Source: Escherichia coli
GTDB taxonomy: Bacteria; Pseudomonadota; Gammaproteobacteria; Enterobacterales; Enterobacteriaceae
DNA length: 64,000 nucleotides
Assembly (NCBI RefSeq): GCF_036507355.1
Contig: NZ_AP027877.1
Reading direction: 5' to 3' (one strand)
Shown piece by piece: positions 12,001 to 15,000 of the stretch. The stretch's first letter is position 1; every line of letters starts with the position of its first letter. A program made the position numbers.

Positions 12001-15000
12001 GATGAGGTGATCGCCGGGGTGCTGCCGGACGGTAAAGCCGAAGCGATTAAACGCCTGCAAAGTGAAGGACGTCAGGTGGCAATGGTGGGCGACGGCATTA
12101 ACGACGCGCCAGCGCTGGCTCAGGCGGATGTCGGCATTGCGATGGGTGGCGGCAGTGATGTTGCTATTGAAACCGCGGCGATTACCCTGATGCGCCATAG
12201 CCTGATGGGCGTTGCGGATGCGCTCGCTATTTCCCGCGCAACGCTGCGCAACATGAAGCAGAACCTGCTCGGCGCGTTTATCTACAACAGTATCGGTATT
12301 CCGGTCGCCGCCGGTATTTTGTGGCCGTTTACTGGAACGTTGCTTAACCCGGTAGTTGCCGGAGCGGCAATGGCGCTCTCGTCGATTACCGTAGTGAGTA
12401 ACGCCAACCGGTTGCTGCGGTTTAAACCGAAGGAATAAGTACATCATTGCGGATGCGCTGCTTTAGGGTGGCGCATTTGGCATCGACGCATGACTGCCGG
12501 ATGCGGCGTGAACGCCTTATCCGGCCTACGGTTCAGGCACAGGTTTGTAGGCCTGATAAGACGCGTAAGCGTCGCATCAGGCAATGGTGCTCGGATGCCG
12601 GATGCGGCGTGAACGCCTTATCCGGCCTACGAGATGAAGCGATGTTTTGGCCTTACGCGACCTTTTTTGCACGCTCTTCACGGCGTGCCAAATATTCAGC
12701 CACTGTTTCAATCCGTCCCAATTCTTCCTGGGTGCGCATGTTGTTTTCAACTTCCCAAAGATCAACTGCCGCCTGGAGGTTTAGCCAAAAATCGACTGTG
12801 GTATCAAAAAATTTCGCCAGACGGAATGCCATTTCAGTGGTGAGTTTACGATTATTATTGATCAGTGTACTGACGCTATTACGATGAACATGCAGCAACT
12901 CTGCTAACTCATTGATTTTCAAAGCGAGCGGTTCCAGATATTCATAGAGAAGAATATCTCCGGGTGTCGTCGGTTTTCTTGTTGCCTGTTTCATAGTTTT
13001 TAACTGTTGCTTCCCTGTGAATAGCGATACAAGAACATACTGAATCATACAAACACATTAAACAAGTCCCCAACTCCATTTGCGCCATCCCTCACCGCGC
13101 GCTAGCATGATATTTCACAAAGGGAGGTCGTATGGATCTGTTGTACCGGGTAAAAACGCTTTGGGCCGCGCTGCGCGGTAATCATTACACCTGGCCTGCC
13201 ATCGATATCACCCTTCCCGGCAATCGCCATTTTCATCTGATTGGCAGTATTCATATGGGTAGCCACGATATGGCTCCCCTGCCCACCCGTTTGCTCAAAA
13301 AGCTCAAAAACGCCGATGCGCTGATCGTCGAGGCGGATGTTTCCACCAACGATACGCCTTTTGCTAATTTGCCTACTTGCGAGGCGCTGGAAGAGCGCAT
13401 TAGCGAGGAGCAACTCCAAAAACTGCAGCACATTAGCCAGGAGATGGGCATTTCTCCCTCACTCTTTTCTACCCAACCGCTGTGGCAAATCGCGATGGTT
13501 CTTCAGGCGACGCAGGCACAAAAACTGGGGCTGCGGGCAGAATACGGTATCGATTACCAGCTATTGCAGGCGGCGAAGCAACAACATAAACCCGTGATTG
13601 AACTGGAAGGGGCGGAAAACCAGATTGCCATGTTGCTCCAGCTCCCTGACAAAGGACTGGCGCTGCTGGACGATACGCTGACCCACTGGCATACCAACGC
13701 ACGGTTGCTGCAACAAATGATGAGCTGGTGGCTGAATGCGCCGCCGCAAAATAATGAAATAACGCTGCCCAATACGTTCAGTCAGTCGCTGTACGATGTG
13801 CTGATGCATCAGCGAAATCTCGCCTGGCGGGATAAATTACGCGCCATGCCGCCGGGGCGATATGTGGTCACGGTCGGTGCACTACACCTGTATGGAGAAG
13901 GGAATTTGCCGCAAATGTTGCGCTAAAAAAATGGCCAATATCGCTATTGGCCCGTCAAAGAGGAATTTCATTTTTTTATTATTATGCCGTCACTTTAAGC
14001 GACGGTGTAACTCGATTGTCGCTCAATCTCACCATCCTGCCAATACTCTTAGGCAAGATGACTCTTTTTTTTGGACCGCCATCAGGCGTATGCTTGCTTC
14101 GTTTTTTTGTTTAAGGCAGGAAAATTACCATGACACCCGCAGTTAAATTACTCGAAAAAAACAAGATTTCGTTTCAAATCCATACCTACGAGCACGATCC
14201 GGCTGAAACCAATTTTGGCGATGAAGTCGTCAAAAAATTAGGTTTGAATCCGGATCAGGTCTACAAAACGCTGCTGGTGGCAGTGAACGGTGATATGAAA
14301 CACCTTGCCGTGGCCGTTACGCCGGTCGCAGGTCAACTGGACCTTAAAAAAGTAGCAAAAGCGCTGGGTGCCAAGAAAGTTGAGATGGCCGATCCGATGG
14401 CCGCGCAGCGTTCGACGGGGTATCTGGTAGGGGGGATTAGCCCACTGGGGCAGAAAAAACGTCTGCCAACGATTATCGACGCCCCTGCACAAGAATTTGC
14501 CACTATTTATGTTTCCGGCGGTAAGCGCGGGCTGGATATCGAACTGGCGGCAGGCGATCTGGCGAAGATCCTCGATGCCAAATTTGCTGATATCGCCCGC
14601 CGCGATTAAGCATTGTGCCGGATGCAAATATCCGGCACTTTCGGATTACTGCCAGCTCACCTCACCTTTCGGTTCATAAATACTCACATCCAGCGGCGAG
14701 CTTTTCTGGATATACGCTTTCAGCACTTCGGCATCAATAAAGCCGGTATTCACATAGCCCGGTTTGTTATCAAGGCGCGGATAGCCATCACCGCCGGTGG
14801 CATTGAAATTTAATGTCGCCATACGGTAAGTTTTCGCTGGATCGACCGGTTCGCCTTTGATTTTCAGGTCGTTCAGTTTGCCGTCTTTCGCCACAAAGCT
14901 AACGTTGGCAAATTGCGGGTAGGCACCTGAATCTGGCTTCATCTGCGCGACGGCGGTCAGGTAATCAATCACCTCTTTACCAGTCATGTCGGCATACACC

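What the first reader, a model, noticed from the sequence alone, without database searches (positions are those of the whole stretch)
13925..14008. ChiX sRNA lies where the ORF track predicts a plus-strand 94-aa ORF
The interval between ybaP and ybaK carries the ChiX/MicM sRNA on the minus strand (exact sequence match from memory, with terminator and U-tail). The track ORF 13862..14146 is antisense to it and almost certainly spurious. The ybaP stop codon overlaps the sRNA 3' end by about 2 nt.
Basis: partly seen in the sequence, partly recalled or inferred. Interest (0 to 1): 0.25.

Follow-up and report, generated by a model that had tools for sequence, protein, structure and literature searches.

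The report
ChiX small RNA gene, correctly identified
This stretch is the well-known E. coli small regulatory RNA ChiX (also called MicM, SroB or RybC), which silences the chitosugar porin gene chiP. The 94-codon reading frame drawn across it on the other strand is a chance artefact, so the finding is correct but ordinary.

Summary
The observation and the interpretation both hold. Window 13925..14008 (minus strand) matches the Rfam sroB/ChiX model full-length at exactly these coordinates: 82.1 bits against a threshold of 44, E = 1.8e-10. It is 100% identical, together with its promoter region, to the curated chiX gene (b4585) of E. coli K-12. The gene sits between ybaP and ybaK and overlaps the ybaP stop codon by 2 nt, as in K-12.

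All the expected parts are present:
- a sigma-70-like promoter;
- a 5' hairpin with compensatory changes in all 8 pairs across Enterobacterales;
- four AAN repeats of the kind that bind Hfq;
- a seed with 12-nt perfect complementarity to the chiP ribosome-binding site and to the chbB-chbC decoy;
- a GC-rich terminator followed by seven U.

Published Term-seq places a very strong RNA 3' end at K-12 507287(+), which is window 13925(-).

The plus-strand 94-aa ORF has no family match and is absent from a 15-billion-protein collection. It overlaps both neighbouring genes, is broken by a stop in another E. coli strain, and is not conserved in other genera. A second antisense frame (55/92 aa) is sometimes deposited as "hypothetical protein" and is equally unsupported. 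The feature is already known, so interest is low.

The parts
13925..14008 (-). chiX gene: 84-nt Hfq-dependent small RNA ChiX (MicM/SroB/RybC)
   Evidence: Rfam RF00368, 82.1 bits, full length. 100% identical to K-12 chiX b4585. My own covariance model scores it 103.5 bits, and it is the only match in the window.
14015..14043 (-). Sigma-70-like promoter: -35 TTGGCA (14043..14038), 17-nt spacer, -10 GACAAT (14020..14015). The -10 ends 6 nt before the annotated 5' end at 14008.
   Evidence: Promoter scan. GACAAT is present in 75 loci, with TTGGCA as the best -35 in 57 of the 116 related loci examined. Yersiniaceae and Erwiniaceae carry different but similarly placed hexamers. Function is inferred from position and conservation.
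13987..14005 (-). 5' stem-loop (ChiX nt 4-22; 8 pairs, 3-nt loop)
   Evidence: Minimum-energy fold. All 8 pairs show compensatory double changes across 95 distinct homologues, with 90% of cells paired. There are 88 distinct hairpin sequences.
13972..13983 (-). Four consecutive AAN triplets (ChiX nt 26-37, AAU AAU AAA AAA): binding motif for the distal face of Hfq
   Evidence: Read directly from the sequence. Invariant A residues occur every third position in the 109-sequence alignment (A24, A27, A30, A33 of ChiX). PMC7987339 reports four AAN motifs in ChiX and shows that they are needed for competition on Hfq.
13951..13964 (-). Seed / target-pairing region (ChiX nt 45-58, UCCUCUUUGACGGG)
   Evidence: 12-nt perfect complement to K-12 chiP mRNA at -19..-8 (over the Shine-Dalgarno AAGAGGA), and 12-nt perfect complement to the chbB-chbC intergenic region. 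0 of 500 shuffles reach 12 nt for either target. These positions are upper-case (highly conserved) in the Rfam consensus.
13925..13952 (-). Rho-independent terminator: stem-loop 13952..13933 (GGCCAAUAGCGAUAUUGGCC), then A and U7 (13931..13925). The U-tail is also the binding site for the proximal face of Hfq.
   Evidence: Terminator scan. 99.3% of cells are paired, with compensatory changes in 3 pairs. Term-seq 3' end at K-12 507287 = window 13925.
13132..13926 (+). ybaP (TraB/GumN family protein), convergent with chiX; its stop codon TAA (13924-13926) overlaps the chiX 3' end by 2 nt
   Evidence: ORF list; Pfam PF01963, E = 5.7e-43; K-12 and RefSeq annotation.
14130..14609 (+). ybaK (Cys-tRNA(Pro) deacylase), divergent from chiX
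   Evidence: ORF list; Pfam PF04073, E = 8.5e-23; annotation.
13862..14146 (+). Spurious 94-aa ORF antisense to chiX (the ORF-track prediction in the finding)
   Evidence: No Pfam hit; exact sequence not in the protein collection; not annotated; overlaps ybaP by 65 nt and ybaK by 17 nt; frame not conserved.
13947..14114 (+). Second spurious antisense ORF (55 aa here; 92-aa form in other strains), in a different frame
   Evidence: ORF list. The cluster consists of 'hypothetical protein' entries, and all listed members are from E. coli or Shigella. No Pfam hit. The open stretch in this frame ranges from 17 to 114 codons across species.

Best explanation
Window 13925..14008 (minus strand) is the chiX gene. 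It is transcribed from its own sigma-70-type promoter, which lies in the ybaK-chiX intergenic region, and ends at an intrinsic terminator that abuts the ybaP stop codon. The product is an 84-nt RNA.

The RNA binds the Hfq hexamer through its 3' U-tail (proximal face) and its AAN repeats (distal face), making it a 'class II' sRNA. Its single-stranded seed (nt 45-58) pairs with the ribosome-binding site of chiP mRNA. This blocks translation and promotes Rho-dependent termination, so the chitoporin stays off when chitosugars are absent. When chitobiose induces the chb operon, the chbB-chbC intergenic region pairs with the same seed and acts as a decoy that triggers ChiX decay. The chiP 5'-UTR fragment ChiZ does the same. 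ChiX decay derepresses chiP.

Shown here: identity, anatomy, structural covariation, synteny and seed complementarity. Taken from the literature on the identical K-12 or Salmonella RNA: expression, Hfq binding and the regulatory outcome. The plus-strand ORFs across the locus are non-coding artefacts.
For: - Rfam sroB full-length hit at the exact coordinates.
- 100% identity over 271 nt to the K-12 chiX locus, with the same 2-nt overlap with ybaP.
- Stable fold, z = -3.9.
- Promoter-like and terminator-like sites in the right places, with the promoter conserved.
- A scan of one genome per species found 120 loci, nearly all Enterobacterales, with ybaK upstream and ybaP downstream in the expected orientation.
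- My own CM found exactly one copy in 99 of 100 sources. The only source without a match was the chance pattern hit L060.
- 95.2% of structure cells are paired, against 21-48% when the partners are slid. 11 of 16 pairs show double changes, and 0 of 500 shuffles reach the observed covariation score.
- 12-nt perfect seed matches to the chiP Shine-Dalgarno region and to the chbBC intergenic region, 0 of 500 shuffles.
- Literature: mechanism review PMC4098024; the ChiZ sponge and the Term-seq 3' end at 507287 with very high scores, PMC7815308; class II status and four AAN motifs, PMC7987339; 57-fold Hfq co-IP enrichment of the 84-nt SroB between ybaK and ybaP in Salmonella, PMC2515195.
Against: Nothing found contradicts this. 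Limits are as follows.
- No expression data exist for the strain the window comes from, which is not K-12.
- Its own chiP and chb loci lie outside the window, so K-12 sequences stood in for the targets.
- The 19 positions used as the retrieval pattern are invariant by construction in my comparative set, so seed conservation rests on the Rfam consensus rather than on my alignment.
- The covariation counts come from an alignment fitted to the model.
Confidence: 0.97

Rival explanations
1. The locus encodes a small protein on the plus strand, either the 94-aa ORF 13862..14146 or the 55/92-aa ORF in the other frame, and the RNA-like features are incidental.
For: Two of the three plus-strand frames are open across the region. 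The 55/92-aa frame has been deposited as 'hypothetical protein' in many GenBank E. coli and Shigella records.
Against: - Neither ORF has a Pfam family.
- The 94-aa sequence is absent from about 15 billion proteins.
- Neither ORF is annotated in curated K-12 or in a current PGAP RefSeq record.
- The 94-aa ORF overlaps both flanking genes and gains an in-frame stop in another E. coli strain (L035, open for 74 codons only).
- In the window's two frames, open stretches vary from 17 to 141 codons across 108 loci, with medians of 54 and 62.
- Conservation follows the RNA structure through compensatory pair changes, not a reading frame.
- ORFs of this size are common by chance here: 43 ORFs of at least 40 aa lie in 4.5 kb, including 161-aa and 215-aa ones antisense to copA.
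Confidence: 0.02
2. The hairpin and T-run are only the transcription terminator of a neighbouring gene (for example a bidirectional ybaP terminator), not part of an independent sRNA gene.
For: The terminator hairpin lies immediately after the ybaP stop codon, and its stem is palindromic, so it also forms on the plus-strand transcript.
Against: - On the plus strand the hairpin is followed by CGTCAAAGAGG, not a T-run, and the scan reports no plus-strand terminator there.
- The U-tail is on the minus strand.
- A conserved promoter sits 84 nt upstream on the minus strand.
- The whole 84-nt unit, not just the hairpin, matches the CM.
- Term-seq and Hfq co-IP define a discrete 84-nt RNA.
Confidence: 0.01

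Closest known systems
ChiX / MicM / SroB / RybC (Rfam RF00368; E. coli K-12 b4585)
   Same: Everything tested: identical 84-nt sequence and promoter region, the same neighbours and orientation (ybaK <- chiX -> <- ybaP), the same 2-nt overlap with ybaP, the same structure, and the same seed complementarity to chiP and chbBC.
   Different: Only the host strain differs. The flanking ybaP/ybaQ DNA differs from K-12 at about 1.5% of positions, with no difference inside chiX.
Other class II Hfq-binding sRNAs (e.g. MgrR)
   Same: AAN repeats upstream of the seed plus a 3' U-tail, which together bind the distal and proximal faces of Hfq (PMC7987339).
   Different: Unrelated sequence, different targets and different regulation. 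No other Rfam family hits this locus.
Proteus mirabilis MicM
   Same: The same conserved seed and terminator, and it represses the chiP homologue (PMC4355480). The Proteus loci L065 and L091 match my CM.
   Different: Not located between ybaK and ybaP: in L091 both genes lie 1.5-2.8 kb upstream of the sRNA, and the paper places the gene between copA and PMI2174. The 5' region also differs.

Membership tests
ChiX/sroB sRNA (Rfam RF00368) | Covariance-model score at or above the curated gathering threshold, over the full model length | tested here: met
   82.1 bits against 44; model positions 1-83 of 83; E = 1.8e-10 for the whole window.
ChiX/sroB sRNA (Rfam RF00368) | Conserved position between ybaK (divergent) and ybaP (convergent) | tested here: met
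   Window: ybaP 13132..13926(+), chiX(-), ybaK 14130..14609(+). The same arrangement is found in K-12 and in nearly all related loci. Salmonella table in PMC2515195.
ChiX/sroB sRNA (Rfam RF00368) | 5' stem-loop and Rho-independent terminator hairpin with a U-tail, supported by covariation | tested here: met
   Fold; terminator scan; 95.2% of cells paired, and 8 of 8 pairs in the 5' helix and 3 of 8 in the terminator helix show double changes. Caveat: the alignment was fitted to the model.
ChiX/sroB sRNA (Rfam RF00368) | Seed complementary to the chiP ribosome-binding site and to the chbB-chbC decoy | tested here: met
   12-nt perfect matches to each, 0 of 500 shuffles. K-12 target sequences were used because the window does not contain chiP or chb.
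ChiX/sroB sRNA (Rfam RF00368) | A discrete ~84-nt transcript is made from this strand | not testable with these tools
   Not measurable for this strain. For the identical K-12 sequence, Term-seq gives a 3' end at 507287(+) = window 13925(-), with scores of 445,279 to 955,394. Salmonella cDNA reads cover the region from the start site to the terminator.
Class II Hfq-dependent sRNA | Several AAN/ARN triplets (distal face) plus a 3' poly-U (proximal face) | tested here: met
   Four consecutive AAN triplets at nt 26-37 and U7 at the 3' end. Invariant A residues with a period of 3. Actual binding of Hfq comes from the literature only.
Protein-coding gene (94-aa ORF 13862..14146) | Reading frame and product conserved in relatives, or a match to a known family | tested here: not met
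   No Pfam hit; absent from the protein collection; frame interrupted within E. coli and in other genera.

The most novel reading that the evidence does not exclude
ChiX and ybaP may influence each other in cis, because they converge and overlap. Published data show a Rho-dependent termination region on the chiX strand about 180 nt past the chiX terminator, antisense to ybaP (K-12 507468 = window 13744). This means some ChiX read-through RNA runs antisense into ybaP.

In the other direction, no canonical plus-strand terminator follows ybaP before 14083..14096. ybaP transcripts may therefore run antisense across all of chiX and its promoter. Either transcript could act as a cis-antisense regulator or cause transcriptional interference. 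Nothing here tests this.
Probability: 0.08. Interest if true: 0.3.

Novelty: already known. Interest (0 to 1): 0.05.

Why it matters
The practical value is for annotation. The sRNA is annotated in the curated K-12 record but not in the one PGAP RefSeq genome inspected. Some GenBank records carry a bogus antisense 'hypothetical protein' here. An ORF-based track will therefore mislabel this intergenic region unless RNA families are scanned first. Biologically it adds nothing new: ChiX is one of the best-studied Hfq-dependent sRNAs and the textbook example of regulation by an mRNA decoy.

Tried and rejected
- MAFFT plus RNAalifold on 109 homologues recovered only the terminator stem. The 5' hairpin has different sequences and offsets in different clades and was mis-registered. 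I replaced this with a covariance model built from 12 close homologues with an explicit structure, and re-aligned all loci to it.
- Whole-molecule RNAduplex of ChiX against its targets gave unrealistic long duplexes with large internal loops. I replaced it with a count of the longest perfect complement, with shuffle controls.
- L060 (a 'Candidatus Lindowbacteria' MAG) matched the 19-base search pattern. It has no terminator, no ybaK or ybaP, and no CM hit, so it was rejected as a chance match.
- A bidirectional-terminator reading of the hairpin was rejected, because no T-run follows it on the plus strand.
- The idea that the window is K-12 itself was rejected: 42 mismatches in 2.8 kb.
- I ran no further search on the 94-aa ORF. 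The exact look-up, Pfam and 108-locus frame analysis were sufficient.

Full report
**Observation.** The plus-strand sequence at 13920-14010 reads ...GCGC TAA AAAAA TGGCCAATATCGCTATTGGCC CGTCAAAGAGGAATTTCATTTTTTTATTATTATGCCGTCACTTTAAGCGACGGTGT. Its reverse complement is ACACCGUCGCUUAAAGUGACGGCAUAAUAAUAAAAAAAUGAAAUUCCUCUUUGACGGGCCAAUAGCGAUAUUGGCCAUUUUUUU. An Rfam scan of the whole 64-kb window at gathering thresholds returns RF00368 (sroB, the Rfam name for ChiX/MicM/RybC) at exactly 13925..14008 on the minus strand. The hit covers model positions 1-83 of 83 and scores 82.1 bits against a threshold of 44, with E = 1.8e-10. A permissive rescan of 13700..14300 finds no other family. The mechanical ORF 13862..14146(+), 94 aa, and the ybaP ORF ending at 13926 are both in the ORF list.

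**Identity with the reference gene.** The curated K-12 MG1655 record has ncRNA chiX (b4585) at 507204..507287(+). It is flanked by ybaK (506603..507082, -) and ybaP (507286..508080, -), so chiX and ybaP overlap by 2 nt. Window 13880..14150 (reverse strand) is 100% identical to the corresponding 271 nt of K-12. The window itself is not K-12: 42 mismatches fall in the surrounding 2.8 kb, all outside this block. A 601-nt query around the locus matches 5,422 of 5,426 complete E. coli genomes. The coordinate map is window x = 521212 minus the K-12 coordinate.

**Anatomy.** ChiX nucleotide n corresponds to window coordinate 14009 - n.
- *Promoter.* A sigma-70-like site, TTGGCA-17 nt-GACAAT, lies at 14043..14015(-) and ends 6 nt before the annotated 5' end.
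- *5' hairpin.* Nt 4-22, with 8 pairs. The whole-RNA fold is -24.1 kcal/mol, z = -3.9.
- *Hfq linker.* Four consecutive AAN triplets at nt 26-37.
- *Seed.* A single-stranded region around nt 45-58.
- *Terminator.* A stem-loop at nt 57-76 (window 13952..13933), followed by A and seven U.

**Comparative evidence.** Nearly all are Enterobacterales: Escherichia, Citrobacter, Enterobacter, Klebsiella, Serratia, Yersinia, Rahnella, Pantoea, Erwinia, Hafnia, Proteus and others. tblastn with the window's YbaP and YbaK shows the same arrangement almost everywhere, with ybaK about 160 nt upstream and divergent, and ybaP ending about 46 nt past the core and convergent. The Proteus loci lack it (in L091 both genes lie 1.5-2.8 kb upstream), and one locus is a chance hit. 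The Proteus exception and the general conservation of ybaK-micM-ybaP are both stated in PMC4355480.

A sequence-only alignment recovered just the terminator helix. I therefore built a covariance model from 12 close homologues with an explicit two-helix structure. Searched against 100 sources, it gave exactly one hit in 99 of them. The source without a hit was the chance locus L060, and the window has a single copy. On the resulting alignment of 95 distinct sequences:
- 95.2% of cells form standard pairs, against 21-48% when the partners are slid by 1-3 columns;
- all 8 pairs of the 5' hairpin and 3 pairs of the terminator show changes on both sides;
- none of 500 shuffles reaches the observed covariation score.

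The caveat is that the alignment is fitted to the model. As an independent check, folding the 40 nt upstream of the core one sequence at a time gives 88 distinct hairpin sequences, with a median energy of -10.8 kcal/mol and a median z of -3.05.

The promoter hexamers GACAAT and TTGGCA recur in 75 and 57 of 116 loci. Yersiniaceae and Erwiniaceae have different hexamers in the same place. In the 109-sequence alignment, invariant A residues sit at ChiX nt 24, 27, 30 and 33, a period of three that fits AAN repeats. One point of circularity: the 19 pattern positions are invariant by construction, so for seed conservation I rely on the Rfam consensus, where these positions are upper-case.

**Mechanism.** The steps shown here concern pairing potential. 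ChiX nt 45-56 (UCCUCUUUGACG) is perfectly complementary to K-12 chiP mRNA at positions -19 to -8, which covers the Shine-Dalgarno AAGAGGA. Nt 47-58 (CUCUUUGACGGG) is perfectly complementary to CCCGUCAAAGAG in the chbB-chbC intergenic region. No shuffle out of 500 reaches 12 nt for either target.

The remaining steps are taken from the literature:
- ChiX constitutively represses chiP. The chitobiose-induced chb mRNA titrates ChiX and triggers its decay (PMC4098024).
- ChiX pairing increases Rho-dependent termination in chiP, and the chiP 5'-UTR fragment ChiZ is a second sponge (PMC7815308).
- ChiX is a class II sRNA that binds the proximal and distal faces of Hfq. It has four AAN motifs whose deletion weakens its competition for Hfq (PMC7987339).
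- In Salmonella the 84-nt SroB between ybaK and ybaP is enriched 57-fold by Hfq co-IP, with reads running from the start site to the terminator (PMC2515195).
- Term-seq in MG1655 puts a 3' end at 507287(+), which is window 13925(-). Its scores are 445,279 to 955,394 in three conditions, against roughly 800 to 28,000 for the neighbouring entries in the listed excerpts, and it is classed 'primary chiX, antisense ybaP'.

**The antisense ORFs.** The evidence against the 94-aa ORF is as follows.
- It has no Pfam match.
- Its exact sequence is absent from a collection of about 15 billion proteins.
- It is not annotated in K-12 or in a PGAP RefSeq genome.
- It overlaps ybaP by 65 nt and ybaK by 17 nt.
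- In the E. coli representative genome L035, a single substitution next to the ybaP stop codon creates an in-frame TGA, which shortens the open stretch to 74 codons.
- In the same frame, Citrobacter, Klebsiella and Enterobacter have only 23-43 open codons.
- Across 108 loci, the longest antisense ORF spanning the core ranges from 0 to 133 aa, with a median of 60.

A second frame (13947..14114, 55 aa here) belongs to a cluster of 'hypothetical protein' entries whose listed members are all from E. coli or Shigella, typically in a 92-aa form. It has no family match and no conservation outside the genus. That two of three frames are open over an A/T-rich, structure-constrained stretch is best explained by chance. 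The same 4.5-kb region contains 43 ORFs of at least 40 aa, of which five are real genes.

**Comparison and verdict.** This is ChiX itself. It is neither a variant nor a new family member in any meaningful sense. Every defining feature that can be tested from sequence is met, and expression and Hfq binding rest on published work with the identical RNA. Novelty: already known. Interest: low. The only value is as an annotation check.

The most novel reading not excluded is cis-antisense cross-talk between ChiX read-through and ybaP. A published Rho-dependent termination region at K-12 507468(+), antisense to ybaP, shows that some read-through occurs. I rate this unlikely to matter and did not test it.

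Noticed in passing
window 13744 (-), about 180 nt downstream of the chiX terminator, inside ybaP on the opposite strand: PMC7815308 supplementary file 2 lists a Rho-dependent termination region at K-12 507468(+), antisense to ybaP. Read counts upstream/downstream are 1492/22 without bicyclomycin and 2100/115 with it, p = 4e-10. Some ChiX terminator read-through is therefore stopped by Rho inside antisense ybaP.
   Followed up: partly
window 14083..14096 (+) plus the T-run to about 14108: A terminator-like hairpin (CAGGCGTATGCTTG, then CTTCGTTTTTTTG) lies on the plus strand only about 25 nt upstream of the ybaK start codon. It could be the real ybaP terminator, which would give ybaP a 3' UTR antisense to all of chiX, or it could be a ybaK leader element. 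It was found only by the consensus scan.
   Followed up: no
window 13947..14114 (+): An ORF antisense to chiX, in a different frame from the 94-aa one, is deposited as 'hypothetical protein' (mostly in a 92-aa form) in many GenBank E. coli and Shigella records. This is a likely recurrent mis-annotation over an sRNA gene.
   Followed up: partly
L002 (NZ_CP033401.1), compared with L001 (NC_000913.3): The one PGAP-annotated RefSeq genome inspected carries no chiX ncRNA feature between ybaP and ybaK. Only the curated K-12 record does.
   Followed up: no
window 12550..12627 (both strands) and 19688..19765 (-): Rfam naRNA4 (RF02564) hits at 87.1, 64.3 and 74.3 bits. These are REP-type palindromic repeat units; the first lies in the copA-ybaQ intergenic region.
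   Followed up: no
window 12653..13048 (-): The mechanical ybaQ ORF is 131 aa from the first ATG, but K-12 and RefSeq annotate a 342-nt (113-aa) HigA-family/HTH gene. The difference is a choice of start codon.
   Followed up: partly
window 62305..62400 (+); 27688..27752 (-); 44556..44652 (-): Other Rfam hits in the window: the sraA sRNA (106.7 bits), the dnaX programmed-frameshift element (96.8 bits) and the 4.5S/SRP RNA (68.1 bits). All are expected for this part of the E. coli chromosome.
   Followed up: no
L065 and L091 (Proteus): The Proteus ChiX homologue is not between ybaK and ybaP. In L091 both genes lie 1.5-2.8 kb upstream of the sRNA; in L065 only a partial ybaP match about 2 kb upstream was found. 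This agrees with PMC4355480, which places micM between copA and PMI2174.
   Followed up: partly
L040, L080, L097, L115 (three named Rahnella; L097 and L115 were not listed there): The terminator hairpin is replaced by a different sequence (GGCCGGCCTTAAAAACCGGCC, or a close variant, instead of GGCCAATAGCGATATTGGCC), while the seed and the U-tail are kept. The terminator stem has been swapped as a whole.
   Followed up: no
L060 (MAG 'Candidatus Lindowbacteria'): The 19-base pattern matches once, with no sRNA features, no ybaK or ybaP, and no CM hit. It is a chance match; by my own estimate a 19-base pattern should give about two such matches in a scan of 298 Gb.
   Followed up: yes
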